Of a stretch of DNA of 64,000 bases, positions 3,507 through 48,529 are shown piece by piece (positions within the stretch are counted from its first letter, which is position 1; each line of letters begins with the position of its first letter). The stretch lies in assembly GCA_964636285.1 (NCBI GenBank), contig CAZWQF010000004.1, positions 3,666 through 67,665 of the forward strand, in the 5' to 3' direction. The notes under the pieces were generated by a model that made no database searches, was not told the origin of the DNA, and saw only the letters and a list, made by a program, of their open reading frames with translations. The stretch is from an uncultured Candidatus Saccharibacteria bacterium (lineage in GTDB: Bacteria > Patescibacteriota > WWE3 > UBA101185 > 2-01-FULL-41-18). The position numbers and the translations under genes were made by a program.

Positions 3507-4619
3507 TTAAACATTAAATCTGAATTCAACAACGTCCCCGTCCTTCATCACGTACTCTTTTCCTTCGAGTCTCATTTTACCCTGCTCCTTTGCCTTTAAA
3601 AACGAGCCTAAAGTGGTTAAATCTTCATAACCCACAATCTCTGCTGCAATAAACCCTCTTTCAAAGTCCGAATGGATAACTCCAGCAGCCTGAGGCGCTT
3701 TAAAGCCCTTCTTAATTGTCCAAGCCCTCACTTCTTTTGGCCCTGCTGTAAGGTAAGTTTGAAGACCTAGAGTTTCAAATCCCTTTTTAATTACCCTATC
3801 AAGTCCAGATTCTTTGAGTCCGTATTCGCTCATAAACATCTCTTGATCTTCACTTGAGAGAACTGAAAGTTCAGCCTCAATCTTGGCTGAAATTAAAACG
3901 TAATCCCCAAAGTCTTTAAATTTTGAGGCTAGTTCTTTTTGCTTTGCGTCAGATACATCAGTTTCCGAAACATTAAAGCAGTAAATTACAGGTTTAAAAG
4001 TGAGCAAAGTTAGGTTCTTAACTGCAAATAACTCTTCCTCTGATAAATCTACGTCTCTAGCTGGTATCCCCTTGTTTAGCTCCTCTTTCAATTTTTTAAC
4101 TGCGGAGACTCTTACCTCCTCTTCTCTCTCCACCTTTCCTTTTATCTCTGTTCTTTGCTTATCAAGAGTCTGTAGATCCGATAAGATTAGCTCAGTTTTA
4201 ATAACTTCAATGTCAGATTTTGGATCGGTTGAGCCCGCTCTGATAACATTATCATCTTCAAAAGCCCTTACTACCTGAATAATTGCGTCCACTTCTCTTA
4301 TATGCGAAAGGAACTGGTTTCCAAGCCCTTCGCCTTTATGAGCACCTGCCACAAGTCCCGCTATATCAACAAATTTAACTGTAGCGTAAGTCATTTTTTC
4401 TGGAATTTCTCTATCCCCTACTTTGTTTCCATGTTCGTTTCGGACAACTTTTGCAAGCTCTTCAAGTCTAAAATCTGGAACTTCAACTACTCCTATATTA
4501 GGTTCAATTGTTGCGAATGGGTAATTGGCAGCAAGAGCTACCTGACGCTTTAAAAGCGCATTAAAAAGTGTGGATTTACCCACGTTTGGAAGACCTACAA
4601 TTCCTATTGATAATGACAT
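3507..4619 (-). CDS. ychF: Ribosome-binding ATPase YchF (Obg-family GTPase)
   Basis: GIVGLPNVGKSTLFNAL P-loop, TGS/C-terminal domain, about 370 aa. Confidence 0.9.
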   Translation of the reverse strand: MSLSIGIVGLPNVGKSTLFNALLKRQVALAANYPFATIEPNIGVVEVPDFRLEELAKVVRNEHGNKVGDREIPEKMTYATVKFVDIAGLVAGAHKGEGLGNQFLSHIREVDAIIQVVRAFEDDNVIRAGSTDPKSDIEVIKTELILSDLQTLDKQRTEIKGKVEREEEVRVSAVKKLKEELNKGIPARDVDLSEEELFAVKNLTLLTFKPVIYCFNVSETDVSDAKQKELASKFKDFGDYVLISAKIEAELSVLSSEDQEMFMSEYGLKESGLDRVIKKGFETLGLQTYLTAGPKEVRAWTIKKGFKAPQAAGVIHSDFERGFIAAEIVGYEDLTTLGSFLKAKEQGKMRLEGKEYVMKDGDVVEFRFNV

Positions 4620-13275: not shown

Positions 13276-13282
13276 AGATTCT

Positions 13283-13331
13283 GCCCGGGAGACTAAAACC
13301 CAAGCACCGCGCAGGTTTTAGTCTCCCGGGC
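13283..13331. repeat. Palindromic dispersed repeat, type A complete copy (GCCCGGGAGACTAAAACCC - 12 nt - GGTTTTAGTCTCCCGGGC)
   Basis: Perfect 18-19 bp inverted arms in the recR-dnaX intergenic spacer; same motif recurs at 16615, 21167, 43036, 43133 and 63473. Confidence 0.8.
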
Positions 13332-13332
13332 A

Positions 13333-14991
13333 CTACAATTCGATATTACCGTCAAACACATCCATAGCACTCTTTGTCACTTTTTTAACCGTTTCCTCTG
13401 CTGGGATTTCTATATTTCTGTCAGTCAAACTCTCCCCTGCTTTGGACTTTAATTCACATTTAAGCCTAAGCTTTGCCCCAAACATATCAAGTAATGCCTT
13501 CTCCAAAATCTCCCTACTCTTTTTTGACTCCAACCTGTCTTTATGGAACGCATATGCCACCTCCAGTGTAAGCCAACCGTCAGCAACATCCTTAGGTCTG
13601 CAGGACCTTAATAACGCTTCAACCGAATGGTTAAATGGTTTAACCGCCTTTAAAATTTCACTCCACGAATCAAGCACAGACTGAAGCGTAACTACTGTAA
13701 GTGACACTGATTCTGTGTCTCCCAAATCAAGGGAGTCTTCAACCTTACTTTTCTTCTTTTTTCCATCAAGCCCATCAAGCTCATCAAAGTCAGAGAAATC
13801 CCCATTCGCCCCACTACCCTCAACTAAATCTTCATCTTCGGCATTACTACCTCCACTACCGCCACCTCTCTTACCGCCTCTCCCACTATCCCCAGAAGGC
13901 TCAAAATTGCCCTTCTTATTGGTTTTTTTGTCCAAGATAGCTTCACATGAAGCCACAATTGCAAGTTCAACTGGAAGCTGATGTATGGCTGAAGTCTTGA
14001 TCTCTACAGTAGCCTTCATAAATTTTTCTATGATCATCACAAGCTCCATAGGTTCTAATTTTTGTGCTTGATCTTCCATCAGAGCATAAATATCTTCAGG
14101 CATGTCGCTTATCCCTTTTGAGTACCCAGCCTGAACATATAAGAGGTCCCTTAAGTATCTGACATATTCATTTGTCCAGTTAACAAGGTCCACCCCATCG
14201 TCAAATAATTTGTTAATAATGCTCAAAGCTCCTTGAGATTTTGCTTCAATAATTGATCTTGTTAGCTTAACGTAAGTTTCAAGAGCATTTGATCCAAGTA
14301 GAGACTCAACATTTAGCCCTCCATCAAGAACCTGCTCAAGGATTGTGTCTGCATCCCTAAACCCTCCATAAGCTGCAACTGCAACCTTCTGTAGATCTTC
14401 TTTTGAAAGCTCCTTTTTCTCTTTTTCCAAAATGTATTCAAGCCTTGCAACAATTTGTTTGACAGTTGGCCTTTTAAACTTAAAAACTTGGCATCTTGAT
14501 TTAATTGTTTCAGGAACTTTGTGACTTTCCGTTGTACATAAAATAAACACAGCATGCTTTGGCGGCTCTTCCAAAGTTTTTAGGAGCGCATTGAAAGCTT
14601 CGATTGTAAGCATGTGAACCTCATCAATTATGTAGATTTTGTATTTTGATGAGAATGGCGATAGGCCAATAGAATCTTTTAGGGCCCTGATATCATCAAT
14701 TCCTCTGTTACTTGCCGCGTCTATTTCGATTAAATCAATATATTTTCCTACTGAGATTGCTTTGCAAGTGGCGCACTTATCACAGGGATCGCCGTTTTTT
14801 TCAGGCGATTTGCAATTTAAGGCTTTGGCAAAAATCCTTGCTGTGGTTGTTTTACCTGTTCCTCTTGGCCCAATAAAAAGATAAGAATGTGCAATCTTAT
14901 CTTCTGCAATTTGAGACGAAAGGGCAAGCGCCGTATCATTCGGTTTTAAGACCTCCGAAAAGACCTGAGGCCTATATTTCTGATAGAACAT
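13333..14991 (-). CDS. dnaX: DNA polymerase III subunit gamma/tau
   Basis: Walker A GPRGTGKTT, zinc module CxxC...C, clamp-loader boxes; Gly/Asp-rich low-complexity insert. Confidence 0.9.
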   Translation of the reverse strand: MFYQKYRPQVFSEVLKPNDTALALSSQIAEDKIAHSYLFIGPRGTGKTTTARIFAKALNCKSPEKNGDPCDKCATCKAISVGKYIDLIEIDAASNRGIDDIRALKDSIGLSPFSSKYKIYIIDEVHMLTIEAFNALLKTLEEPPKHAVFILCTTESHKVPETIKSRCQVFKFKRPTVKQIVARLEYILEKEKKELSKEDLQKVAVAAYGGFRDADTILEQVLDGGLNVESLLGSNALETYVKLTRSIIEAKSQGALSIINKLFDDGVDLVNWTNEYVRYLRDLLYVQAGYSKGISDMPEDIYALMEDQAQKLEPMELVMIIEKFMKATVEIKTSAIHQLPVELAIVASCEAILDKKTNKKGNFEPSGDSGRGGKRGGGSGGSNAEDEDLVEGSGANGDFSDFDELDGLDGKKKKSKVEDSLDLGDTESVSLTVVTLQSVLDSWSEILKAVKPFNHSVEALLRSCRPKDVADGWLTLEVAYAFHKDRLESKKSREILEKALLDMFGAKLRLKCELKSKAGESLTDRNIEIPAEETVKKVTKSAMDVFDGNIEL

Positions 14992-16577: not shown

Positions 16578-16614
16578 AAAGTTACTCTAAGGACTGAAAA
16601 CTAGGCACTGCACA

Positions 16615-16632
16615 GGTTTTAGTCTCCCGGGC
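16615..16632. repeat. Solo right arm of type A dispersed repeat (GGTTTTAGTCTCCCGGGC)
   Basis: Exact match to the right arm at 13314-13331. Confidence 0.7.
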
Positions 16633-16646
16633 AGAGGTTATGTCCA

Positions 16647-19632: not shown

Positions 19633-21123
19633 TTAATAGGACTGAGCAAAAAGCCATTTGTGGGTTGCTGGCTTTCCGCAGTGCACACAAACATTTACGG
19701 ATTCTGCTATAGAAGTTGCTTCCGAACTTGAATTTATAGGGCTCAATTCAACTCTGTTCCGGCTCTCGTCTTCAACAGGCAAACATCTTGTTGTTGCCTT
19801 TGTTTTTTCTTTGATTTGGGCTTCGCAGTCTCTGTCCTCACACCAATATGCGCTGATAAATCCCCTTTTTGTGTCCATAATCTTTTTAAATTCTTCAAAC
19901 GAATGGGCTTCGGACATTAATTCGCTTTGCTTTCTTTTTGCTTCGTTAAAAAGATTTTCCTGAATTTCTTCTAAAAGCTTCTTTGAAAAAGTAGGTAAAT
20001 CTTTTTGTGCGCATTTTAATTTTTCTAAGGTATCTCTTCTTGCCACAACATACGAATCGGATTCAATGTCCCGAGCCCCTACTTCGATTCTTAAAGGAGC
20101 TCCCCTGACTTCCCATTTGTTAATTCTAAAACCAAGGCTCTCACCGTCTCGGGAATCAACCTCGGCTCTAATTCCGTCTTCAACAAGCCCACTACAAAGC
20201 TCTTTTGCTTTTGTAACTAACGCATCGTCATCAGATTTAACAGGCAAGACAATAACTTGAACTGGTGCAATTTTTGGAGGAAGTTTTAGGCCTTTGTCAT
20301 CGCCATGCATCATGATGAGCCCGCCAATTGACCTAGTAGAAAACCCCCACGAAGTCTGCCATGCGTACTGCTTCTCCTTATTTTTGTCTTGAAAACTGAT
20401 TTCAAAGGCTTTGCTAAAGTTTTGGCCAAGATCGTGAGAAGTGCAGCTCTGAAGAGCTTTTCCATCCGGCATAATAGCTTCAAAAGTCATGGTCATGTTT
20501 GCGCCGGCAAACTTTTCGGATTCAGATTTTTTACCGATAAAGCCTGGAAGTGCGTAATATTCTCTGTAAACCTTAGCGTACATTCTGATTGCCCAATCAA
20601 CCATTTCAAGGGATTCCTCATGCGTTGCGTGAGCTGTGTGACCTTCTTGCCATAAAAATTCGGTTGTTCGCAAAAATAGATACGAACGCTTTTCCCATCT
20701 GACTACGTTGTTCCATTGGTTAATGAGGATTGGAAGATCGCGCCAGGACTGGACCCATTTGCTATATGCATCGTACATTATTGTTTCTGAGGTAGGTCTT
20801 ACTGCTAAAGGCTCTGTGAGCTCTTCCCCACCTCCAACTGTGACAACTGCAAGTTCAGGCGAAAAGCCTTCGACATGATTTGCCTCTTTTTTAAGAAAGC
20901 TCATTGGGATAAAAAGCGGAAAGTAAGCATTTTTAACACCTTTTGCTTTTATGAGAGGATCCATGGCTTTTTGGAGCTCTTCCCAAATACCATAGCCGTA
21001 GGGCTTGATGATCATGGTGCCTTTTGCAGGACCGTATTCAGCAAGACCTGCTCTGAGGATGATGTCGTTGTACCATTCGGAAAGATTTTCAGTTATTTTT
21101 TTCTTTTGCGCTGTATCGTACAT
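19633..21123 (-). CDS. proS: Prolyl-tRNA synthetase (archaeal/eukaryote-like class II form)
   Basis: Class II motifs, C-terminal zinc-binding extension, about 496 aa without the bacterial INS domain. Confidence 0.9.
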   Translation of the reverse strand: MYDTAQKKKITENLSEWYNDIILRAGLAEYGPAKGTMIIKPYGYGIWEELQKAMDPLIKAKGVKNAYFPLFIPMSFLKKEANHVEGFSPELAVVTVGGGEELTEPLAVRPTSETIMYDAYSKWVQSWRDLPILINQWNNVVRWEKRSYLFLRTTEFLWQEGHTAHATHEESLEMVDWAIRMYAKVYREYYALPGFIGKKSESEKFAGANMTMTFEAIMPDGKALQSCTSHDLGQNFSKAFEISFQDKNKEKQYAWQTSWGFSTRSIGGLIMMHGDDKGLKLPPKIAPVQVIVLPVKSDDDALVTKAKELCSGLVEDGIRAEVDSRDGESLGFRINKWEVRGAPLRIEVGARDIESDSYVVARRDTLEKLKCAQKDLPTFSKKLLEEIQENLFNEAKRKQSELMSEAHSFEEFKKIMDTKRGFISAYWCEDRDCEAQIKEKTKATTRCLPVEDESRNRVELSPINSSSEATSIAESVNVCVHCGKPATHKWLFAQSY

Positions 21124-21352
21124 ATTCTGGACGGGTAACGAAAACCCGTGTGTTTAGTGCATTTCTGTCCGGGAGACTAAAACCCACTGCTCATCACATT
21201 TCTTAGTTTGGGTTTTGATTTGGATGGTAGCTCTCAGCTTGCTTTATCTTACATTTTTTATTCGTGAAACAAAAGGGGCTTGAAAAGTTTAGTTAATAAG
21301 ATTTAGAATCACCAAAACCGAAAGTCCTTTTTTGCTTAAGGAGAAAGCAATA

Positions 21353-21520
21353 ATGAGACCAGGCGTGAAAAAGCAAACAAAAGATGTTCCACAGGAAAAT
21401 GGAGGCGGAAAGGCACGACCAGGAAAGGGTTCAAGGCCACTACCACAGAGAGTTCGTGTAAGCCCGCCGCCTGAACCACCAGCACAGAGCAGGCAGTCAC
21501 CTGGAAACGGTACCAAATAA
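21353..21520 (+). CDS. Tiny basic, Pro/Gly-rich low-complexity protein (55 aa) inside the TIR element
   Basis: SD AAGGAGAAAG 6 nt upstream of ATG. Confidence 0.35.
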   Translation: MRPGVKKQTKDVPQENGGGKARPGKGSRPLPQRVRVSPPPEPPAQSRQSPGNGTK

Positions 21521-21691
21521 TGGGACGATAGGAGATAAGTGGCTGCTAGTCAATCGAATCTTGGAATTATCAAGCACTGAAAGTGGGACTGCTATTTGCA
21601 CTAACCCCTGTTAGTGTTATATAGTTTGAGTCCAAAACCCAACCGGTATCGGAATTTTAATACCGGCATTCATGCCTTTTGGAGGGCAAGC

Positions 21692-21811
21692 ATGGCAAAG
21701 AAGCCGACGAACGAGCCGAAGACCAGCTCTGGTCCAGGTGGAAGCAAGGACAAATGTGGTCCCAAGTCGGACGCTCAGGAGACCGCCAAGAAACTGGAAA
21801 AGGCTAAGTAG
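21692..21811 (+). CDS. Tiny basic Lys-rich peptide (39 aa) inside the TIR element
   Basis: SD GGAGGG 6 nt upstream of ATG; followed by a terminator. Confidence 0.3.
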   Translation: MAKKPTNEPKTSSGPGGSKDKCGPKSDAQETAKKLEKAK

Positions 21812-21834
21812 CCTCTGACCAAGCCCGCACAAAA

Positions 21835-21912
21835 AAGCCCCGAGATCGCACGAGAATTTCTGACACTATCAGATAACATCAAACTCGCGGATCTCGGGGC
21901 TTTCCATTTTTT
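21835..21912 (+). terminator. Hairpin terminator (GCCCCGAGATCGC ... GCGGATCTCGGGGC followed by TTTCCATTTTTTC)
   Basis: 13-bp imperfect stem and T-run directly after the 39-aa ORF. Confidence 0.45.
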
Positions 21913-21949
21913 CTTATAAACAGTGGGTTTTCGTTACCCGTCCAGACTA

Positions 21950-23119
21950 TTAACCAATCAGGTTTTTCACATCCTTAAATGTCACTAGCACCATCAAGGC
22001 TAGTAAAATTGCCATTCCAATCTTATGCACTAACGCCTCTTTAACCGGATCGGGTTTATGCTTTGTGATCATTTCAAAAACCACAAAAACTAGCCTTCCC
22101 CCATCGAGCGCAGGAATAGGAAGCAAATTCATGAGCCCAAGTGACAGTGACAACAGCGCCACCAAATCCAAAAGCGCTATAACAGTATCTTTCCCGCCAT
22201 GTGTCAGAATTGCCCCAACAATAGAAAACACACCAACAGGTCCTGAAATCCCGGTAGATACCGGCTCAAAAGTCTTTTTTTCAAACGAATAGCTCACGAG
22301 CTCCTTAAACACCGCTCCAGTGTAATCAAGCATGTTAAATGCGTGCAATGGCCCAGCCAAAAGCACCACCCCCGAATAATCTATCTGCACTACAGGCCCT
22401 AAAACTATTCCAATCTTTCCCCTCTTCTCCCCGTCCGTACTCTCCAAAAGTTCAGGTGTGGCCATTACCACCCTCTTTGCCTGTGCAGAGTCCTTTACGT
22501 CCATGAGCAAAATTTTTGCCTCCCTACCCGTAGACAAATTCATGAGGTCTCTAACATCTTTAAGTGTGTAAACAGGGGTATCGTTGATTTCTATCACTGC
22601 TTCGCCAAATTTTATTCCGGCCTTTTCCGCTGCAGAGCCAGGCTCAACACCAGACACAACCGTCTGAATTACTTTTTCATGACCGAATTTGAAATGGTGA
22701 TCAACATAAAGTGGCAAAACCTGCGATTTAAACCCGTTCAATCCAAGCACAAAGTAGTACAAAATAAAAGCGCCTAAAAGGTTCATTAAAATCCCTGCTA
22801 CCAAAATAAAAGCCCTTGCATAAGTGCTTTTTGATAAAAAGTTTTCAGGATCGGCCATTGCTCTTTTTATTGCGTCAGGAGAGTCGTCATCCTCACCAGT
22901 CAACTTCACAAATCCACCAAACGGTAAGAGATTAAGTGTGTAAGTTGTTTCGCCAACTTTTTTGCCCCAGATTTTTGGAGGCAAGCCAAGTCCAAACTCT
23001 TCAACTCTGACGCCAGATCTTCTAGCAGCCATAAAGTGTCCAAGTTCGTGAATAAACACTAAAAACGAAAGGATTAACGCAAAAACAATAAAAGTTAACA
23101 TACTGTGTAAGGATAACAT
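21950..23119 (-). CDS. rseP: RIP site-2 metalloprotease RseP
   Basis: HELGHFMAAR zinc motif, PDZ domain, LDGG motif. Confidence 0.85.
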   Translation of the reverse strand: MLSLHSMLTFIVFALILSFLVFIHELGHFMAARRSGVRVEEFGLGLPPKIWGKKVGETTYTLNLLPFGGFVKLTGEDDDSPDAIKRAMADPENFLSKSTYARAFILVAGILMNLLGAFILYYFVLGLNGFKSQVLPLYVDHHFKFGHEKVIQTVVSGVEPGSAAEKAGIKFGEAVIEINDTPVYTLKDVRDLMNLSTGREAKILLMDVKDSAQAKRVVMATPELLESTDGEKRGKIGIVLGPVVQIDYSGVVLLAGPLHAFNMLDYTGAVFKELVSYSFEKKTFEPVSTGISGPVGVFSIVGAILTHGGKDTVIALLDLVALLSLSLGLMNLLPIPALDGGRLVFVVFEMITKHKPDPVKEALVHKIGMAILLALMVLVTFKDVKNLIG

Positions 23120-23167
23120 CTGGCTACTTGGAAGTGTAGGGGTAGGGAATAAATTAATAAAGCCTTA

Positions 23168-24913
23168 CTATTCAGAGGTTTTTAAATAGGGTGGGACATA
23201 TACCTCGATTACTGAGCTGATTCCGTTACTAAGCGAGCCCTGGGATAAACACTGCCCCTGTACGATAACAGGCAATTGTTCGCCAGATTCAGATGCTGGT
23301 GCACCTGAAAAAGCATCTGCAGATTTATAAACCATGTCTTGAAGAGGAGTATCTTCATGCTGCTCAACTAAAGCAAGGAACTCTTTTGGCATTGCTCTCA
23401 CGCTACCTACAACTGCCCTAACATACCTCTCTCTATCTTCCTCTGCAATTCTGGAGGAGAAGAACTTTAACATGAACTCAAACCTCTCAACTGAACTATG
23501 AAACAACACAGTTGGGGATCTCATATACATTGCTGCACTTTCGCACAAGTCCTCTCTAGCGCTCAGCCCTTCACCAGCATTAGCAAGTGTACGTCTAACA
23601 TATTCGGTGACTGATTTTCTCTCACCATTACTATTATGTGTATTTTGAACAATGCTTTCCCAGTCCAACATCTCAGCTTGGCTCATACCTACTCGAGCAT
23701 GTTCAAAAATTTCATGGCTTAAAACACTATGTATTGTGGCATTGTTGATGAGCCTTGACATACCTTCAAATGCTACTGGACTTTCAGCTATAGAAGCTGC
23801 TCTTGGATCCGGCTTGAATCTTATTGCTTTTATGCCTCGTAACATAGATGGAGGAATGTAGGTTGATGGATTCCCAGCTTCTATTAGGGCTCCAAGATTT
23901 GAGTATAAGTAGACCTGCATATGCTCAGCACTAAAGGTTTCAAAATGCCCATCGGGTGTGGTAGATAAACCTTCGATTGTGATAGGAGGACTTTCTACTC
24001 CAAATAGTATTTCTGGATCACCATTCCTTACCCTAGATACCCACTTCTCATAGTCACCTAAGCATTTAACCAAGGCAGCAGCTATCTTTGGATGAGAGGT
24101 TGCAAACGAATAGCCAATAGAATCCTCATAAGATTCGGCAACAAACGAGAGCACTTCATTATAGGGAATCTGAACAGATGCATCTCCCCCACCTCTGAAC
24201 TGGTATGAAAGTTTGTTATGTCCCATCACTTCCTTGAGTAAGTTTTTTGCTCTGAGAGAAATGTCAGCATTAACTGTACCTATTTCCTGGCCTCTCAATT
24301 TAGAGTCCACAGGAATCCCTTCGCTTGTGCTAAAGGCATAACCAGAAAACTCTTTATTAATCTCACCAATTGCCCAAATTCTGTATCTTAACGAGTATTC
24401 AGGCTCTCCCGCTGCAATCTTTCCAAGTAAAGTAAATGTGTGTTCCAAGCCTATTTTTGACTGATTAAGCTTGCTTGGCGAATCAAAAGCGGAAAAATAA
24501 CAATCAAAGTCTGTGCAATCTAGAGTAGTCAAAAAGTCTTGTTGAAGGTCCTCCTCAAGCTTATTCCTTTGGCGGTCAAGGCTAGTGGTAGACTCCCTAA
24601 GCTCCTGTATAAAACCATCTTTATTTAATTCCTCAAAAATTTTAAGAAAATCTGGCCTTCTGGCTTCTATCTCAACAATGTTAGTGTCTAAATCTGGAGA
24701 TTCAGCTCCAAAATAAACCCTCAAGTCTTTCAACAGCCCGCCCTCAAGGGGCTCACTCGTTGGAAAGTACGGTAATAGTTTTTCAAATAGTTCAGATCGG
24801 GCACTCGAAAGCCTCTCTTCTTCAGCTTCTAATGCAGCGTACCTTGTTTCAAGGCTTTCTGAACTGGGTTTTTCCAAGGCATTGGAATGTTGTGGCATTG
24901 TGAGATTAAACAC
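23168..24913 (-). CDS. Large hypothetical protein (581 aa), coiled-coil N-terminus
   Basis: Sits where uppS-cdsA-dxr usually lie between frr and rseP; no recognised motif. Confidence 0.5.
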   Translation of the reverse strand: MFNLTMPQHSNALEKPSSESLETRYAALEAEEERLSSARSELFEKLLPYFPTSEPLEGGLLKDLRVYFGAESPDLDTNIVEIEARRPDFLKIFEELNKDGFIQELRESTTSLDRQRNKLEEDLQQDFLTTLDCTDFDCYFSAFDSPSKLNQSKIGLEHTFTLLGKIAAGEPEYSLRYRIWAIGEINKEFSGYAFSTSEGIPVDSKLRGQEIGTVNADISLRAKNLLKEVMGHNKLSYQFRGGGDASVQIPYNEVLSFVAESYEDSIGYSFATSHPKIAAALVKCLGDYEKWVSRVRNGDPEILFGVESPPITIEGLSTTPDGHFETFSAEHMQVYLYSNLGALIEAGNPSTYIPPSMLRGIKAIRFKPDPRAASIAESPVAFEGMSRLINNATIHSVLSHEIFEHARVGMSQAEMLDWESIVQNTHNSNGERKSVTEYVRRTLANAGEGLSAREDLCESAAMYMRSPTVLFHSSVERFEFMLKFFSSRIAEEDRERYVRAVVGSVRAMPKEFLALVEQHEDTPLQDMVYKSADAFSGAPASESGEQLPVIVQGQCLSQGSLSNGISSVIEVYVPPYLKTSE

Positions 24914-25454
24914 TCATCAAATCTTTTTTCTTTGTCTCAAGGAGTTCTTCGATTTTGGCCGTGAATTCTTTTACAACCTTTTCTATATCCTCTTTTTGAG
25001 AGAATTTTTCATCCTCAGTAAGAGTTTTTTCCGAAAACTTTTTGTCTATTTCTTTCATTGCATCTTGCCTAACATTTCTAATTGCGTTCTTTGCTGTTTC
25101 GGCTTTTTCGGATGCTAATTTTGAGAATTCTTTTCTTCTTTCTTCTGTTAAAGGCGGTACCGGTACTTTAACGCTAATGCTGTCTGGAACCGGATTTAAA
25201 CCCATTCCTGCGTCTCTAATTGCAGAATCAATGTCTTTAACAAGCGATTTATCCCAAGGCGAAATCACAATCATTTGAGCGTCAGGTACAGTAATTGAAC
25301 CCACCTCAACCATTTTCATTTTGCCACCATAAGCTTCAACTTCAATGTTTTCAACGAGTGTTGTTGTTGCCCTGCCTACTCTAATTCCAGCAAGCTCCCC
25401 TTTAAAATGCTCCACAGAAGAAGTAAGTTTTGTTTTAAGTTCTGAAATATTCAT
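24906..25454 (-). CDS. frr: Ribosome recycling factor
   Basis: Canonical RRF sequence (HFKGELAGIRVGRATTTLVENIEV...). Confidence 0.9.
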   Translation of the reverse strand: MNISELKTKLTSSVEHFKGELAGIRVGRATTTLVENIEVEAYGGKMKMVEVGSITVPDAQMIVISPWDKSLVKDIDSAIRDAGMGLNPVPDSISVKVPVPPLTEERRKEFSKLASEKAETAKNAIRNVRQDAMKEIDKKFSEKTLTEDEKFSQKEDIEKVVKEFTAKIEELLETKKKDLMSV

Positions 25455-25485
25455 ACAATGGGATTATAACATTTTTAATAAGTAG

Positions 25486-26289
25486 TTAAGCAGGAACCGC
25501 GTGGTTTAGAACAAATTTTATACCGTTAGTATCGTCATCTTTTGCTCGTGCTGATTCAGAAAAAGATTTTTTAATATCAACTCCTCCTACATTTATATCC
25601 ACATCTCCAGGCCGCATACCCATACGTTCTAGTATCACATCAAACATTTCCTGAGCAAAAACTTTTCGTTCAGGAGTTGTGTATCTTGAATTTAAATCTA
25701 TGTCTATTGCTCTTGATGACGATGATATGGATGAAATTGATATGAAATTGACCCTGCCGTCTACTCCTACTGATGTGAATATCCTTGTACCGCCCGAATA
25801 AGCGTCTATTTTTAGTAATTCTATTCCATCAGAAGTAATTTGATATTCCATAGACAGAGTGTCTTTAGGATCTTCATTATCTCTAATAGTTAATTCAACA
25901 CTTGATGCGGCTGGTGATCCTTCTGGAAACAGTCCAACTTGAGCAGCAATTAACGACTTGTTTAATGGCCCACCTTCAGCATCTACCTCCCTCAAATAAT
26001 AGTTATAGTACAATGCTGGTGATCCCATAGCTAGCTTAGTTCCCAAAAGCACCTTTAAATCAGCTAGGCCTAACTCTTCAAGCACTTGGGATAAAGCCTC
26101 CTCTGCTCTGGGCTCATTTTTCATCAGCTCTATCTGAGGTCTATTTCTTCTTGCAAAATCTTGCTCCTCAACGGCTGCTTCAATAGCGTTTTCATGAGAT
26201 TGTTCAGATAGTGGATTGAGCGCCTGTGCACGCTGATGTGTATCAACTCGGTCTCCTGTTGGAAGGTAATCCCAACCTTTATTTAGCAT
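25486..26289 (-). CDS. Hypothetical protein (267 aa) occupying the usual pyrH position
   Basis: Between tsf and frr; lacks UMP-kinase motifs; Ser-rich low-complexity segment. Confidence 0.45.
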   Translation of the reverse strand: MLNKGWDYLPTGDRVDTHQRAQALNPLSEQSHENAIEAAVEEQDFARRNRPQIELMKNEPRAEEALSQVLEELGLADLKVLLGTKLAMGSPALYYNYYLREVDAEGGPLNKSLIAAQVGLFPEGSPAASSVELTIRDNEDPKDTLSMEYQITSDGIELLKIDAYSGGTRIFTSVGVDGRVNFISISSISSSSRAIDIDLNSRYTTPERKVFAQEMFDVILERMGMRPGDVDINVGGVDIKKSFSESARAKDDDTNGIKFVLNHAVPA

Positions 26290-26371
26290 AATTAAAGCGT
26301 AGCAGAGTTGGTAAGGATTTTAAAGTCCCTATCACTTTTTGCTACGCTTTAACTTTCTTAGTAATTCGCTT

Positions 26372-26824
26372 TTATTCCCCTACCTTGAATCTTGCAAACC
26401 TAGCCACTTTAATATTTTCTCCAACCTTTGCAATAGTCTCAGTTACAAGATCAGAAATCTTTTTTGACCCATCTCTTATATATGCCTGTGCCAAAAGTTC
26501 TTCAACATTTTCTGCAGGCATTGCACATGCTTGCATTGCTACTTCGTTACAAAGTTTTTTAAAGTCCTCAGTCTTTGCTACAAAGTCTGTTTCACAGTTG
26601 ATTTCAACTAACGAAGCTACCTTTCCTGTAGAGTGAATGTAGCTAACTACCAGCCCATCAGCTGCATTTCTATCAGCTTTCTTTGCAGCTTTTGCTGCGC
26701 CAGCTGCCATTAGTACAGCCTTGGCTTTCTCAAAAGAGCCGTGCTCTTCTAGAGCCTTTTTAGCATCCATTACTCCAGCTCCAGTTTCTTCTCTGAGCTT
26801 TTTAATATCATCCATTTGTGACAT
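26372..26824 (-). CDS. tsf: Elongation factor Ts (short form)
   Basis: UBA-like N-terminus LREETGAGVMDAKKAL, TDFVAK core; 150 aa, as in reduced genomes. Confidence 0.85.
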   Translation of the reverse strand: MSQMDDIKKLREETGAGVMDAKKALEEHGSFEKAKAVLMAAGAAKAAKKADRNAADGLVVSYIHSTGKVASLVEINCETDFVAKTEDFKKLCNEVAMQACAMPAENVEELLAQAYIRDGSKKISDLVTETIAKVGENIKVARFARFKVGE

Positions 26825-32587: not shown

Positions 32588-32640
32588 CTGGACGGGTAAT
32601 GAAAACCCAGCTACAGTGCGGGTTTTCATTACCCGTCCAC
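32588..32640. repeat. Palindromic dispersed repeat, type B complete copy (CTGGACGGGTAATGAAAACCC - 11 nt - GGGTTTTCATTACCCGTCCAC) preceded by GCATTTCTG
   Basis: Perfect 21-bp arms; equivalent to the TIRs of the 21127-21945 element with no cargo. Confidence 0.8.
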
Positions 32641-43029: not shown

Positions 43030-43035
43030 TTAACA

Positions 43036-43151
43036 GCCCGGGAGACTAAAACCCGCACCACTACTAAATTATCAATTTCTGGTTCTGCTCTGCGGGTTTT
43101 CATTACCCGCCCCCCCCCACCTTATGCCTATTGGGTTTTAGTCTCCCGGAC
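43036..43151. repeat. Composite dispersed-repeat locus: type A left arm (43036-43054) ... type B right arm (43092-43111) + C9 tract ... type A right arm (43133-43151)
   Basis: Exact matches to the arms at 13283/13314 and 32620; nested arrangement in the GH1 to tRNA-Thr spacer. Confidence 0.75.
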
Positions 43152-43225
43152 AGAAATTCTTAATTCCATTTATATTTGCAGTTTGCTAGAATAACGCAGG
43201 AACTTTAGAAACATTGAAAACATTG

Positions 43226-44953: not shown

Positions 44954-45584
44954 AGAAAAAACAAGAAATTTAAAAGCAAAAAGGAATTCGACAAAGACCC
45001 ATGCACCCGCCAAATAAGGCGGTTTTTGTTACCCAATAAGCAAAATGTATTAATAGACCTATAGTTTACAAATTGAGTATACTAAAGTATAATCCGTACC
45101 ACAAAGGAATTCCTCCTTTATCCCTTAACTAATTAGAGTTATGGGTTATCACATTGCCGAGATGGCAATTGAAAGGATGGACGAGATGTCCACGTATCGT
45201 AAAGTTTTGAAGAGCGAAGGTGGTCATTGACCAATTGGATCAACAAAGGTGTTGAAAATGGATTGATCACGCAAACAGAGGCTCTACAGTTCAAGGGCGA
45301 CTTGGCCAAGTACGTGTAGAGGTCCTCTAAACCACAGGTCAATTCTCCCCGCCTGTTCCCCGCCCATAGACACGGTTCATCGCTATACGCGCTGAAGCCA
45401 AGCCAAACCCCAAAAGGATTTGGTCCGTGTCTCCCCTAAGTAAATCAAAAAATTTGGTTTGTTTAGGAGAAGAAACGACCTAGAAATAGGTCGTTTTTTG
45501 TGCTCTCCCCGCTCCCCCTTCGATTTTCAAATATTTGTCTTTAGAGTTAAAATCTCCCTCAACAATCAAAAGAAAGGCGTGCGA

Positions 45585-46178
45585 ATGGCAAAAACATTCG
45601 GGATCTTGGGTACATCGCTCTTTGCGCTCTGCATGACCGTTATTGCAGGTGTGGCATTTTTCAAAGAGTGGATGTTTGAACACCCAGATTTGACGTTCAC
45701 AATGGTCACTACGTGTCTCACACTCTCGATTGTGGGCATGGCGATGATGTTTGGTGGATTCCATCTTCATAACAGGACTTCCAAAAAACCCTTCGCCCCA
45801 AACGAGAAGCTCATGAAGGAAGCATTCCAGAGATGGAATGAAATCCTTGTTGAGAGTGGGTTCTTTGTACTTGAATCGAATCAGGGCAAAGGGCCAAACG
45901 GTGACTACAACGCGTACTTTAGGTACGTGGTAGGAAGAGAACCCTTTCATGTAACCCTGACGGTTGGCTCAGTACTGGCAAACGGTTACTATGCAAGGAA
46001 CGTGGCGCTAAGCCCTGCACTAACACAGCTGATCAAGGAGATGAAGCGTTTCAATTTTTACGATGAACAAATTGCCATCGTGAAAGTTGGTGACAGAATG
46101 GTCCGCATGTACGACTTTTTTGTGGATCGGTTTGTGACAGGTTTCACGGTGGTTGTTCGATTTCAGATTGGAAATTAA
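45585..46178 (+). CDS. Island cassette protein A: N-terminal 2-TM anchor + C-terminal domain of about 120 aa (198 aa)
   Basis: SD AAAGAAAGG before ATG; two hydrophobic helices; hairpin terminator after the stop. Confidence 0.55.
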   Translation: MAKTFGILGTSLFALCMTVIAGVAFFKEWMFEHPDLTFTMVTTCLTLSIVGMAMMFGGFHLHNRTSKKPFAPNEKLMKEAFQRWNEILVESGFFVLESNQGKGPNGDYNAYFRYVVGREPFHVTLTVGSVLANGYYARNVALSPALTQLIKEMKRFNFYDEQIAIVKVGDRMVRMYDFFVDRFVTGFTVVVRFQIGN

Positions 46179-46321
46179 GCCCATAATCCCCCCCCCGCTT
46201 GAGAGTGTGCATTTGCCAGAAGCCTTAAGATAATGTCATAGGCAAAGCAAGTGCACACTTTTTCATAAATTGATATAAAATATTTCACACCAAAAGAAAG
46301 CATTCAAAAGAGAGGTAACAA

Positions 46322-46519
46322 ATGAACGCAAGATCTTTGTTGAAGGTTGCTGGAACCTTGAGCATGCTGCTTGGGGTAATAGGCTTTTGCATTGTTCTGT
46401 GGGTGTCATCAAAATCTGGCGTGGGTCCAGGGGCAGCTCTGGAACTAGTCGTTTGCATTGTGATGGTTGGGGTTGGCTACGTTGCATTCACAGAAGATAC
46501 CGAGGTCAGGCGTAATTAG
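46322..46519 (+). CDS. Island small 2-TM protein B (65 aa)
   Basis: SD AAGAGAGG before ATG; two hydrophobic helices. Confidence 0.45.
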   Translation: MNARSLLKVAGTLSMLLGVIGFCIVLWVSSKSGVGPGAALELVVCIVMVGVGYVAFTEDTEVRRN

Positions 46520-46738
46520 TCTTGAGCTAGCGCTTGTCCTGACAACATCTGCTCATCAACTACGGGGAAGGCCAAAAGCCTTGGGCGTAAGCCTGACAGC
46601 CCAGATTCGCAAAATAAATCTAGGCTGTCCCCCTCTCTCACTTTTCCCCAAAGCACTTTGTATTTGACTACCACTATTTAACTTATTGCTATAAAATACC
46701 CGCAACAAATAAACCTAAAAACCTTAAGTGGAGGTGTC
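46520..46738 (+). promoter_or_regulatory. Island intergenic module copy 1 (GGGGAAGGCCAAAAGCCTTGGGC, hairpin GACAGCCCAGATT...AATCTAGGCTGTC, GTCCCCC, TTGACT...TGCTATAAAAT promoter-like box)
   Basis: Shares its 5-prime half with the copies at 47745, 49007, 51326 and 51967. Confidence 0.5.
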
Positions 46739-46984
46739 ATGCGAACCGGATACCATAGAGGTACTTTTCACCTTAAGTATGGGTGGTCAGAAGAGCTAGG
46801 CAGAACATTTATTGAGGTCCACGATCACGTACCGCCATCTGAGGTACTGATTCTGGCACTCCAGCTTGGGATAGCTCAATACCCAGATGACCCAGACGAT
46901 CCGATTTTGGCTGTGAAGCTGCCAAAAAAGGAAAAGCCGGAACTTATCAGATTCTCAGCTCTAAAGAAACGACTGAGGATCTAG
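46739..46984 (+). CDS. Island small soluble protein C (81 aa), family 4
   Basis: SD GGAGGTG; C-terminal ILAVKLPKKEKPELIRFSALKKRL matches LLFVQLPGSDKPEFLSAAQIRDRM of 51110..51325. Confidence 0.5.
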   Translation: MRTGYHRGTFHLKYGWSEELGRTFIEVHDHVPPSEVLILALQLGIAQYPDDPDDPILAVKLPKKEKPELIRFSALKKRLRI

Positions 46985-47144
46985 GGAGGTACTGAATGCG
47001 CAAAAAGTCCATGGCATAGCGTATGGTTGGAATGACGAATGGAAAGCCTTAATCCAACAGCTTAACCAGCTATCTGGAGTTGAGGTGGTACACTATGTCC
47101 CATCAAACGAGCCCAACAAGGCTTAGTAAAAAGGAAAAAGGCAG

Positions 47145-47744
47145 ATGGACACCAAATTGTGGAACCGACTTCTAGGCGTCTTTGGCGTTTTGTTTGGGGT
47201 TGTTATTCTGATCACAACGCTTCAGCTCACTGAGACAATAGGCGTTGGAGCAGTGTGGGTTCTGATGCTCTTGCTTGGGGTGGCTTGCGTATGGATGGGC
47301 ATCACTGGACTTAGATACAAACCCAAGGTGCTTGTGGAACCGAGTGACAAAGTCCAAGCACTTCATAGGCTTGGAGTTGCACGGATCAAAAGCGCAGGAG
47401 TGGGAGCGAATGTGCTTGGAGATAGGACAAGGTGGTGGTTTGGCCAAATCCTTACCCCAGTCCATTTTCAAGTTCACGGGCGCAATTTGACCCTCACTCT
47501 CTCGGCTGGCCCCAATGCACTTGGAGAGCACAGGGTTTTTGATAACACTGAAGCACTTCCTGCCGATGTTGTGAGTGCCGCCAATCAACTGAGACACGTG
47601 TTCCCAAACCCCAAGTTCATTGTGGAGAGGTCAGGACAAAGGCTCAGACTGAAGGTAATACTCCACTCCGATCAAGAATGCATGCTCTATCTAGAGGATG
47701 AATTCTTCCACGAACAGTATGGGGCAAACTTCTCGCTGTTCTAG
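47145..47744 (+). CDS. Island 2-TM membrane protein D (199 aa), family 1 (LGEH ... RLKVILHSD ... MLYLED domain)
   Basis: SD AAAAGGAAAAAGG; two N-terminal TM helices; C-domain alignable to 50488..51096. Confidence 0.55.
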   Translation: MDTKLWNRLLGVFGVLFGVVILITTLQLTETIGVGAVWVLMLLLGVACVWMGITGLRYKPKVLVEPSDKVQALHRLGVARIKSAGVGANVLGDRTRWWFGQILTPVHFQVHGRNLTLTLSAGPNALGEHRVFDNTEALPADVVSAANQLRHVFPNPKFIVERSGQRLRLKVILHSDQECMLYLEDEFFHEQYGANFSLF

Positions 47745-47947
47745 ACCCCAAACTTAGCACCCAGACTGCGCCGTAAACAAATTGTGGGAGGATAGAAATA
47801 TCTTGAGCATAAGCTCGGCAACCCAGATTCATAAAAAAAATCTAGGCTGTCCCCCACTACTACCTTCTAAATGATTTTGTTCATTTTCATTTTCTTATTT
47901 TTAGAATTACAATCCGTATTAACAAGACCTAGTTTGTGGAGGAAACC
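47745..47947 (+). promoter_or_regulatory. Island intergenic module copy 2 (hairpin CAACCCAGATTC...AATCTAGGCTGTCCCCC, then TTTTCATTTTCTTATTTTTAGAATTACAATCCGTATTAACAA leader)
   Basis: Conserved with the modules at 49007, 51326 and 51967; TACAAT -10-like element. Confidence 0.5.
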
Positions 47948-48523
47948 ATGAAACGACTATTTGGTGTGTGTGAATTTCTGTTGGGGTTAGGAATCGTCAT
48001 CTATCTGATCCTGTTACCAAACAGGGAAAGCATAGACCCTCTACTCCAAGTCTTCACTCTTGTAGTAGGAATGACACTCGTTGTAGTAGGTTCAATCTAC
48101 CTCTTCATCCCTGAGTCAAACAACCCGCTCAGACAGCATGAGCTAAGCATCCAGAACCTGATTGCAACAGGCCTTTACAAGTTTGTGGATCAGTCTGTGC
48201 AAGATAGGGATGGGAATTGGCACAGCCTCGTCCAATTCAACAGTGGATTAACGAGCCTTCTTGGAGCAGTAGCAACCAAAAAGCAACAGCTGCGCAGACG
48301 ATTAATACAGGGAAATATCAGCCTGCTTCCAAGCGACATGCTTGCCATCGCGGAGCAAACATCAAAGCATTGGCCAGCATGGATTTCCATGGAAAAAGGA
48401 ACCTGGGGAAATGTCTACTACCTGGAGTTTGTGATCGCAAAAGGCAAGCTCTGGGAAACAGTACTTGTGTTCCCCATCAGGGGTGCGGACTACAGCGCAC
48501 TGCTTAAGCACATCGAAGGATGA
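47948..48523 (+). CDS. Island 2-TM membrane protein E (191 aa), family 2 (YLILLP N-terminus)
   Basis: SD GGAGGAAACC before ATG at 47948; paralog of 49202..49849. Confidence 0.55.
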   Translation: MKRLFGVCEFLLGLGIVIYLILLPNRESIDPLLQVFTLVVGMTLVVVGSIYLFIPESNNPLRQHELSIQNLIATGLYKFVDQSVQDRDGNWHSLVQFNSGLTSLLGAVATKKQQLRRRLIQGNISLLPSDMLAIAEQTSKHWPAWISMEKGTWGNVYYLEFVIAKGKLWETVLVFPIRGADYSALLKHIEG

Positions 48524-48529
48524 CGCCTA

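What the first reader, a model, noticed from the sequence alone, without database searches (positions are those of the whole stretch)
21127..21945. 819-bp GC-rich insert with perfect 21-bp terminal inverted repeats between rseP and proS
CTGGACGGGTAACGAAAACCC (21127-21147) and GGGTTTTCGTTACCCGTCCAG (21925-21945) are exact reverse complements and are type B family members. The same arms placed back-to-back with only an 11-nt spacer occur at 32588-32640, that is, an empty version of this element. The interior is about 55% GC against about 38% for the flanks. It holds a TTGAAA-17-TTAGAAT promoter-like box, two SD-preceded ORFs encoding tiny, very basic low-complexity peptides (55 aa Pro/Gly/Arg-rich; 39 aa Lys-rich) and a strong hairpin terminator. 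This is the clearest evidence that the dispersed palindromes mobilise cargo, in a MITE-like, non-autonomous way. The cargo peptides could be nucleic-acid-binding, or the cargo could really be a structured RNA.
Basis: seen in the sequence. Interest (0 to 1): 0.65.

Follow-up and report, generated by a model that had tools for sequence, protein, structure and literature searches.

The report
Repeat-bracketed mini-gene insert at rseP–proS junction
Between two housekeeping genes of an uncultured CPR bacterium lies a 0.8-kb lineage-specific stretch with two orphan micro-ORFs, bracketed by two inverted copies of a genome-specific hairpin repeat; it looks like DNA lodged between the halves of a REP-like palindrome, and nothing shows that the repeats moved it.

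Summary
The sequence facts hold. The two arms (21127-21147 and 21925-21945) are exact 21-nt reverse complements. They belong to a dispersed repeat family with two unit types (A and B) at six intergenic loci in the window. An intact B palindrome with an 11-nt loop sits at 32588-32640. The interior carries a promoter-like box, two SD-led basic micro-ORFs and a long hairpin terminator.

The GC contrast is overstated: 46% (50% in the core) against 42%, and ORF1's excess GC lies in codon positions 1 and 2, not position 3.

The host is a CPR/Patescibacteria genome whose nearest ProRS is 65% identical. One distant relative has rseP and proS 6 nt apart. Two others carry unrelated 2.5-2.9 kb inserts at the same junction, without inverted repeats. 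So the interior is lineage-specific DNA at a recurrent gain site.

Nothing shows that the arms mobilised it:
- there is no second copy of the cargo;
- there is no convincing target-site duplication;
- no transposase was seen in the window;
- the left arm is part of an A+B doublet module that recurs at 63473-63533 without cargo.

Nesting at 43034-43153 shows that these hairpins accumulate insertions between their arms. Best reading: a REP/REPIN-like dimer with DNA inserted between the partners. This is a new member of a known kind, of modest interest.

The parts
19633..21123 (-). proS (archaeal-type ProRS). Its ATG lies 3 nt from the left arm and has no SD.
   Evidence: Pfam tRNA-synt_2b, HGTP_anticodon and ProRS-C_1. 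The N-terminus aligns with relatives.
21127..21147 (+). Left arm: a B-type repeat unit (the 'long' arm; the repeat extends to TTCTG at 21125).
   Evidence: Exact match.
21165..21185 (+). Orphan A-type repeat unit just inside the left arm. Its inner flank CCCACTG is complementary to CAGTGGG next to the right arm.
   Evidence: (D4, I4, I7).
21125..21184 (+). [B]-13 nt-[A] doublet module, copied at 63533-63473 without cargo.
   Evidence: blastn gives 80% over 61 nt, E = 1e-6. I2.
21280..21309 (+). Promoter-like TTGAAA-18-TAGAAT. TAGAAT is the usual -10 hexamer in this genome.
21353..21520 (+). ORF1: 55 aa, Pro/Gly/Arg/Lys-rich, pI 11.7, AGGAG 9 nt upstream. An orphan with native-like codon usage.
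   Evidence: (0.294 bits per codon against 0.316 for real genes; GC3 0.345).
21692..21811 (+). ORF2: 39 aa, Lys-rich, pI 9.7, GGAGG 6 nt upstream. An orphan with ambiguous coding signal (GC3 0.667).
21831..21906 (.). Long hairpin with a roughly 15-bp outer stem, flanked by an A-run and a T-run. It works as a bidirectional terminator, and the uninterrupted T6 tract is on the minus (rseP) strand.
21925..21945 (-). Right arm: a B-type unit, 4 nt after the rseP stop codon. Its inner flank ACAGTG resembles the loop end of the intact B palindrome (ACAGTGC).
21950..23119 (-). RseP-like M50 site-2 protease with a PDZ domain.
   Evidence: Called as 383 aa in the Logan contig.
32588..32640 (.). Intact B palindrome with an 11-nt loop, between two minus-strand genes. 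This is the 'empty' form.
13281..13333 (.). Intact A palindrome that fills the gap from one gene's stop codon to the next gene's ATG.
43034..43153 (.). Nested site: A arms 78 nt apart enclose a partly deleted B palindrome.
63473..63531 (-). A-like unit plus B unit doublet without partner arms or cargo.

Best explanation
The 819 bp are the two partners of one B-type REP/REPIN-like hairpin element, held apart by about 770 bp of lineage-specific DNA that lodged between them.

In this CPR genome, 53-nt palindromes (21-nt arms, 11-12-nt loop) fill the few-nucleotide gaps between co-directional genes. All lie in the same orientation relative to transcription. One such element occupied the ancestrally tight rseP|proS junction. 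Its inter-arm space then accumulated further DNA: an A-type unit, and a self-contained opposite-strand transcription unit (native-type promoter, two SD-led orphan micro-ORFs, hairpin terminator).

The hairpin terminator now also ends the rseP transcript. proS is left behind a 5' region that carries the A and B units.

The arms are brackets or targets, not demonstrated transposon ends.

Shown: the repeat anatomy, the insertion relative to other lineages, the orphan status of the cargo, and the nesting elsewhere in the window. Inferred: the order of events, transcription and translation of the micro-ORFs, and the terminator function.
For: - The arms sit where the arms of intact palindromes sit. 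The short arm lies just after the upstream stop codon and the long arm (...CAGAAT) lies 0-4 nt before the next ATG, in the same orientation as sites 1, 2 and 4.
- Removing the element leaves TAA-TAGT/AAT-ATG, a 7-nt gap. The gap in relative L023 is 6 nt.
- The right arm keeps ACAGTG, the loop end of the intact B palindrome (ACAGTGC).
- Site 43034-43153 is an A palindrome with a B palindrome remnant between its arms, so inter-arm insertion happens in this family.
- The cargo is native-looking, not freshly foreign. ORF1 has GC3 0.345 against the genome's 0.362, its codon score equals that of real genes, and the -10 is TAGAAT as in many genes here.
- The interior is unique: no homologue in 1.84 billion protein representatives, phages, plasmids, Rfam or relatives' junctions.
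Against: - Only one genome and one sample carry this locus, so no empty or intermediate allele was seen and the order of events is inferred.
- The left arm is part of an A+B doublet that also occurs alone, so it may not be the original partner of the right arm.
- Two relatives have extra genes at this junction without any inverted repeats. The interior could therefore predate the repeats.
- Identity of the arms is weak evidence, because B units differ by only 1-2 nt in general.
- Only 64 kb of the genome could be examined.
Confidence: 0.45

Rival explanations
1. Mobile insertion cassette (MIC) or large MITE. The two B units are terminal inverted repeats recognised in trans by an unidentified transposase, and the whole 819 bp moved into the rseP|proS gap as one unit.
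For: - Perfect 21-nt inverted ends that share a variant (AACGAAAA) not seen in the other four B units of the window.
- The element precisely fills a gap that is 6 nt in a relative.
- The cargo is a complete transcription unit without a transposase, which is the MIC layout (MICs are named in PMC3129680).
- A possible TA on both sides.
Against: - The cargo is single-copy in the window and absent from all collections.
- There is no significant target-site duplication. A TA is expected by chance in AT-rich flanks.
- No transposase or integrase family was found among the window's ORFs.
- The left end is a doublet module that also exists without cargo.
- An extra orphan A unit lies inside, which a simple TIR-cargo-TIR element does not need.
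- ORF1's codon usage is native.
Confidence: 0.2
2. An older intergenic island with later, independent repeat arrivals. The micro-ORF unit, or its remnant, already lay between rseP and proS, as other genes do in WWE3 relatives. A B singlet and an A+B doublet settled separately at its two gene-proximal ends.
For: - Relatives L001 and L020 hold 2.5-2.9 kb of unrelated genes, mostly on the opposite strand, at this junction and without bracketing inverted repeats.
- The A+B doublet is a module in its own right.
- Singlet units exist (site 6).
- B units are so alike that exact identity of two independent copies is not improbable.
Against: - It needs two events that happen to give inverted, identical units in the canonical short-arm/long-arm orientation.
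- The right arm retains a piece of the palindrome loop (ACAGTG), as expected for half of a former hairpin.
- In REPIN biology, singlets are usually decayed doublets (PMC3733652 section 14).
Confidence: 0.25
3. Invertible promoter segment (inverton). A site-specific recombinase flips the DNA between the 21-nt inverted repeats to switch expression.
For: Perfect inverted repeats 777 nt apart enclose a promoter-like site.
Against: - The repeats are members of a dispersed palindrome family.
- No recombinase was found in the window.
- Two independent assemblies show the same orientation.
- In either orientation the internal terminator lies between the promoter and the outside genes.
Confidence: 0.03
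4. The cargo is a structured non-coding RNA rather than protein genes.
For: Local hairpins at 21598-21617 and 21642-21667. The whole 606-nt transcript folds with z = -4.6.
Against: - The z-score is carried by the terminator hairpin. The inter-ORF 171 nt have z = -1.6.
- No Rfam family matches, even at E up to 10, apart from hits to the terminator stem.
- Both ORFs are the best-scoring of the six frames and have SDs at the right spacing.
Confidence: 0.07

Closest known systems
REP dimers, BIMEs and REPINs (Di Nocera et al. 2013, PMC3733652; Bertels & Rainey 2011, PMC3116915)
   Same: - Short units dispersed in extragenic space, mostly between co-directional genes and just downstream of coding regions.
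- Units pair in inverted orientation into long hairpins.
- Several unit types occur in one genome, with hybrid dimers, clusters and nesting.
- DNA is occasionally inserted between dimer partners.
   Different: - There is no unpaired GTAG or CGTC tag common to the units.
- No RAYT was seen.
- The host is a CPR bacterium.
- The arms are 21 nt with an 11-nt loop, so the element is only 53 nt.
- The inter-partner distance here is 777 nt and contains a transcription unit.
Mobile insertion cassettes (MICs) and MITEs
   Same: Terminal inverted repeats flank passenger DNA with no transposase. 'Empty' short versions of the same ends occur elsewhere in the genome.
   Different: - No target-site duplication was found.
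- No cognate IS with the same ends was found.
- There is no second copy.
- The ends belong to a palindrome family, not to recognisable IS ends.
IS elements that target REP sequences (e.g. the IS110-family ISPpu9, PMC12288879 abstract)
   Same: REP-type palindromes act as landing sites for other DNA, sometimes with a small extra gene.
   Different: No transposase gene or IS remnant is detectable in the interior.
Invertons (invertible promoters flanked by inverted repeats). The comparison rests on my own knowledge of the class.
   Same: Inverted repeats flank a promoter-bearing segment a few hundred bp long.
   Different: There is no invertase, a single orientation was observed, and the internal terminator blocks read-out.

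Membership tests
REP (tagged palindromic repeats, PMC3733652) | Short (20-40 bp) repeated unit that is itself a small stem-loop | tested here: inconclusive
   The B unit can form ACGGGT-7 nt-ACCCGT when its flank allows. The A unit has only a 3-bp GGG/CCC stem. The strong structure is the dimer, not the unit.
REP (tagged palindromic repeats, PMC3733652) | Unpaired GTAG or CGTC motif at one end of the unit | tested here: not met
   No GTAG in A or B. CGTC occurs in B (ACCCGTCCAG) but overlaps the stem, and it is absent from A.
REP (tagged palindromic repeats, PMC3733652) | Many dispersed extragenic copies, mainly between unidirectional or convergent genes | tested here: met
   Thirteen units at 6 intergenic loci in 64 kb, four of them between co-directional genes. 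The rest of the genome was not available.
REPIN (PMC3116915) | Two inverted units plus a spacer that form one hairpin | tested here: met
   Sites 13281-13333 and 32588-32640 fold at -23 to -25 kcal/mol, z about -9 to -10.
REPIN (PMC3116915) | Cognate RAYT (IS200/IS605-like tyrosine transposase) in the genome, flanked by the repeats | tested here: inconclusive
   No transposase family appears among the Pfam families listed for 73 window ORFs (11 weak families of set A2 were not displayed).
MITE / MIC | Terminal inverted repeats | tested here: met
   21 of 21 nt.
MITE / MIC | Target-site duplication flanking the ends | tested here: not met
   The flanks are ...ACATA|TT and AC|TATTAA. At most a TA is shared. 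No consistent duplication exists at sites 1 and 4 either.
MITE / MIC | Multiple copies, or a cognate IS with the same ends supplying the transposase | tested here: not met
   The interior is unique in the window and in the phage, plasmid and protein collections. No IS was found in the window. The remainder of the genome is untested.
Inverton | Both orientations present in the population, and an invertase | tested here: not met
   The MAG and the Logan assembly have the same orientation. No recombinase family was found in the window.

The most novel reading that the evidence does not exclude
The A/B hairpins are the ends of a CPR-specific, trans-mobilised cassette system that shuttles promoter-equipped micro-protein genes into the few-nucleotide gaps between operon genes. 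No known transposase family would be involved. As a side effect, the hairpins would define processing sites that release SD-less downstream cistrons as leaderless mRNAs.
Probability: 0.1. Interest if true: 0.6.

Novelty: new member of a known kind. Interest (0 to 1): 0.3.

Why it matters
If the bracket were a true cargo-carrying element, it would be a rare example of gene mobilisation in the streamlined, transposase-poor genomes of CPR bacteria. It would also be a route for the birth of micro-protein genes.

As the evidence stands, the locus mainly documents two things. First, a CPR genome carries its own REP/REPIN-like hairpin family. The searches made here found no description of such repeats in CPR. 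Second, such hairpins, and the rseP|proS junction, are places where new DNA accumulates.

Tried and rejected
- **Rfam.** Searched at gathering score over the window and at E up to 10 over 21050-22000. Only tRNAs elsewhere and spurious matches to the terminator stem.
- **blastn of 21100-21970** against phages and plasmids: no match.
- **Pfam on ORF1 and ORF2:** nothing.
- **HMMER of ORF1** against 1.84 billion representatives: only itself plus one low-complexity 2484-aa protein.
- **ORF2:** no homologue.
- **A single disrupted gene?** ORF1 and ORF2 share a frame, but four stops lie between them. Rejected.
- **B-arm pattern in 185,579 species genomes:** 14 single hits in unrelated phyla, about the chance number. 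The source genome is not in that collection.
- **B-arm pattern in metagenomes:** 4 single hits, of which the three examined lie inside coding sequence.
- **Viral contigs:** none for B, two chance 16-mers for A.
- **tblastx and blastn of the interior** against relatives' junctions: nothing.
- **Inverted repeats bracketing the inserts of relatives L001 and L020:** none.
- **Exact-protein look-ups** of ProRS, ORF1, RseP and the neighbouring 177-aa gene: only Logan contigs from one run, SRR12762304, 100% identical. No population variant was found.
- **Logan contig start at 21097.** This is exactly 30 nt outside the left arm and looked like a k=31 graph branch at an empty-site boundary. However, it falls in a T7 run, the contig is not broken at the right arm, and other Logan breaks (15197, 20320, 26512) are not at repeats. 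Treated as coincidence.
- **Integron attC reading.** The arm has GTTACCC, which does not fit my recollection of the GTTRRRY core. Rejected from the sequence alone.

Full report
**Observation**

The window holds CTGGACGGGTAACGAAAACCC at 21127-21147 and its exact reverse complement at 21925-21945. Allowing up to 3 mismatches, the 21-mer has five matches in the window against none in 100 dinucleotide-preserving shuffles.

The flanking genes are a ProRS (19633-21123, minus strand) and an M50/PDZ RseP-like protease (21950-23119, minus strand). The left arm starts 3 nt from the proS ATG. The right arm ends 4 nt from the rseP stop codon.

An independent Logan assembly of run SRR12762304 is 100% identical over 21097-26512 and spans both arms. 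The arrangement is therefore not an assembly artefact.

The composition claim is overstated:
- The 819 bp are 46.3% GC and the core 21340-21830 is 50.3%.
- The window is 41.8%, proS 42.0% and rseP 42.6%.
- The left 200 bp of the interior are AT-rich.

**The repeat family**

Two related unit types occur: B (CTGGACGGGTAAYRAAAACCC) and A (CTGYCCGGGAGACTAAAACCC). All six loci in the window are intergenic:
- An intact A palindrome at 13281-13333.
- A degenerate A palindrome at 16592-16634.
- The locus in question, with B+ at 21127, A+ at 21165 and B- at 21925.
- An intact B palindrome at 32588-32640.
- A nested site at 43034-43153.
- An A-like plus B doublet at 63473-63531.

The intact palindromes fold into hairpins with stems of about 19-22 bp, at -23 to -25 kcal/mol as DNA, z about -9 to -10.

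Between co-directional minus-strand genes the palindromes fill the whole gap, always in the same orientation. A 'short' arm lies directly after the upstream stop codon. A 'long' arm ending in CAGAAT lies 0-4 nt before the next ATG. The two arms at 21127 and 21945 sit in exactly these positions and orientation.

Three details complicate a simple TIR reading:
- The left arm with the A unit beside it (21125-21184) is an 80% copy of 63533-63473, where no partner arms or cargo exist. [A]-13 nt-[B] is therefore a module of its own.
- The A unit at 21165 has no A partner. Its inner flank (CCCACTG) is complementary to the inner flank of the right arm (CAGTGGG), giving a second, 31-nt, 77% complementary pairing (I7).
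- B units differ from each other by only 1-2 of 21 positions, so exact identity of two of them is weak evidence for a special relationship.

At 43034-43153, A arms 78 nt apart enclose a partly deleted B palindrome. This shows that DNA does accumulate between the arms of these hairpins.

**The interior**

The interior carries the following features:
- A promoter-like TTGAAA-18-TAGAAT at 21280-21309. TAGAAT is the typical -10 hexamer of this genome.
- ORF1, 55 aa, pI 11.7.
- ORF2, 39 aa, pI 9.7.
- AGGAG and GGAGG at proper spacing before the two ORFs.
- A long hairpin at 21831-21906.

The hairpin has an A-run on one side and a T-run on the other. The uninterrupted T6 tract follows it on the minus strand. 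It is therefore at least as good a terminator for rseP as for the micro-ORFs.

ORF1 looks like a native coding sequence:
- GC1/2/3 is 0.655/0.600/0.345 against the genome's 0.511/0.364/0.362.
- Its codon log-likelihood is 0.294 bits per codon. Real genes average 0.316, and the maximum of off-frame windows is 0.235.
- Its higher GC therefore comes from Pro, Gly, Arg and Ala codons, not from foreign base composition.

ORF2 is ambiguous (GC3 0.667; 0.225 bits per codon), though its frame is the best of six.

Both ORFs are orphans. ORF1 matches only itself among 1.84 billion representatives, and ORF2 has no homologue. Neither has a Pfam hit.

The 171 nt between the ORFs are not unusually structured (z = -1.6), and Rfam finds nothing. 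The interior is single-copy in the window and absent from phage and plasmid records.

**Comparative context**

The nearest ProRS anywhere is 65% identical. It comes from candidate division WWE3, and the other top hits are CPR/Patescibacteria. No close relative exists in the collections.

The source genome itself is not in the GTDB-representative set. The organism was found in a single run.

The synteny frr–rseP–proS–HIT is old:
- In L023, rseP and proS are 6 nt apart (TAA-CGCACT-ATG).
- In the WWE3 genome L001, 2.5 kb with adk and three small ORFs lie between them, mostly on the opposite strand.
- In L020, 2.9 kb lie between them, with a short-chain dehydrogenase, two small ORFs and a tRNA-binding protein.

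These inserts share nothing with the present interior and have no bracketing inverted repeats. The junction is thus a recurrent site of gene gain, and the interior here is lineage-specific. Removing the 819 bp leaves a 7-nt gap.

The B-arm pattern occurs elsewhere only as chance-level single hits, and the three examined lie in coding sequence. The repeat family is confined to this lineage.

**Interpretation**

The locus is an insertion relative to the ancestral operon, bracketed by family members.

What is not shown is that the brackets moved the cargo:
- There is no second copy.
- There is no target-site duplication beyond a possible TA.
- No transposase or integrase appears among the Pfam families seen for 73 window ORFs.
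- The left end belongs to a module that exists without cargo.

[quoted passage not shown] A B-type hairpin that filled the rseP|proS gap had further DNA lodged between its arms, namely an A unit and the micro-ORF transcription unit. The retained loop fragment next to the right arm (ACAGTG against ACAGTGC in the intact copy) and the nested site at 43 kb support this.

I give this reading about 0.45. The rivals are:
- An older island with independent arrival of the units at both gene ends: about 0.25. It is supported by the unbracketed inserts in relatives.
- A true MIC-like cassette: about 0.2.
- An inverton or a structured-RNA cargo: a few percent each.

**Comparison with known families**

The family works like REP/BIME/REPIN elements, but it fails the tag criterion (no unpaired GTAG or CGTC shared by the units) and no RAYT was found. 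I do not file it as a member of those families.

It fails two of the three MITE/MIC criteria tested (target-site duplication, and multiple copies or a cognate IS).

A paper search found no description of such repeats in CPR genomes. This is a limited search, not proof of absence.

**Verdict**

The feature is real and its anatomy was correctly described apart from the GC contrast. It is best seen as a new member of a known kind: a palindromic-repeat dimer with DNA inserted between the partners, carrying two orphan micro-ORFs. Interest is modest.

The decisive data are read-level evidence from SRR12762304, a whole-MAG census of the repeats, and closer relatives. None of these were reachable with the tools available.

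Noticed in passing
window-wide, e.g. ATG at 4619(-), 8978(-), 9599(-), 8068(+), 25454(-), 38998(+), 2244(-): Many genes have a -10-like hexamer (TAGAAT, TATAAT or TAAAAT) about 6 nt before the ATG and no Shine-Dalgarno. Only 20 of 57 long ORFs have an SD-like 4-mer. Leaderless mRNAs appear common in this CPR genome, while the 35-58 kb part uses SDs.
   Followed up: partly
window 13281-13333, 16592-16634, 21125-21190, 43034-43054: The 'long' arm of the palindromes ends (…CAGAAT) 0-4 nt before the ATG of SD-less downstream genes, always in the same orientation relative to transcription. Cleavage at the hairpin base could release leaderless cistrons. This is an untested idea.
   Followed up: no
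window 45400-52700: A run of about 190-215-aa ORFs on the + strand, each preceded by a conserved 40-76-nt upstream repeat and a second repeated block (families D1-D3). None has a Pfam family. It is a tandem paralogous gene family of unknown function.
   Followed up: no
window 63476-63496: TTTAGAGTCC-G-GGACTCTAAA is a perfect dyad that looks like two A-unit outer halves joined tail-to-tail. This differs from the usual head-to-head palindromes.
   Followed up: no
window 23168-24913 (-): A 581-aa ORF between frr and rseP has no Pfam family. Relatives L001 and L023 have frr directly followed by rseP, so this is a second lineage-specific gene in the same operon.
   Followed up: no
L024 (Logan SRR12762304_385528), start = window 21097: The independent contig begins exactly 30 nt outside the left arm, as a k=31 graph branch at the arm boundary would. 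However, it lies in a T7 run, and the other contig ends (15197, 20320, 26512) are not at repeats. Probably coincidence. Worth checking against the reads.
   Followed up: partly
window 21946-21952: rseP ends with tandem stop codons TAA-TAG on the minus strand, and the TAG abuts the right arm. At 13333 the upstream gene's TAG stop likewise abuts or overlaps the short arm.
   Followed up: no
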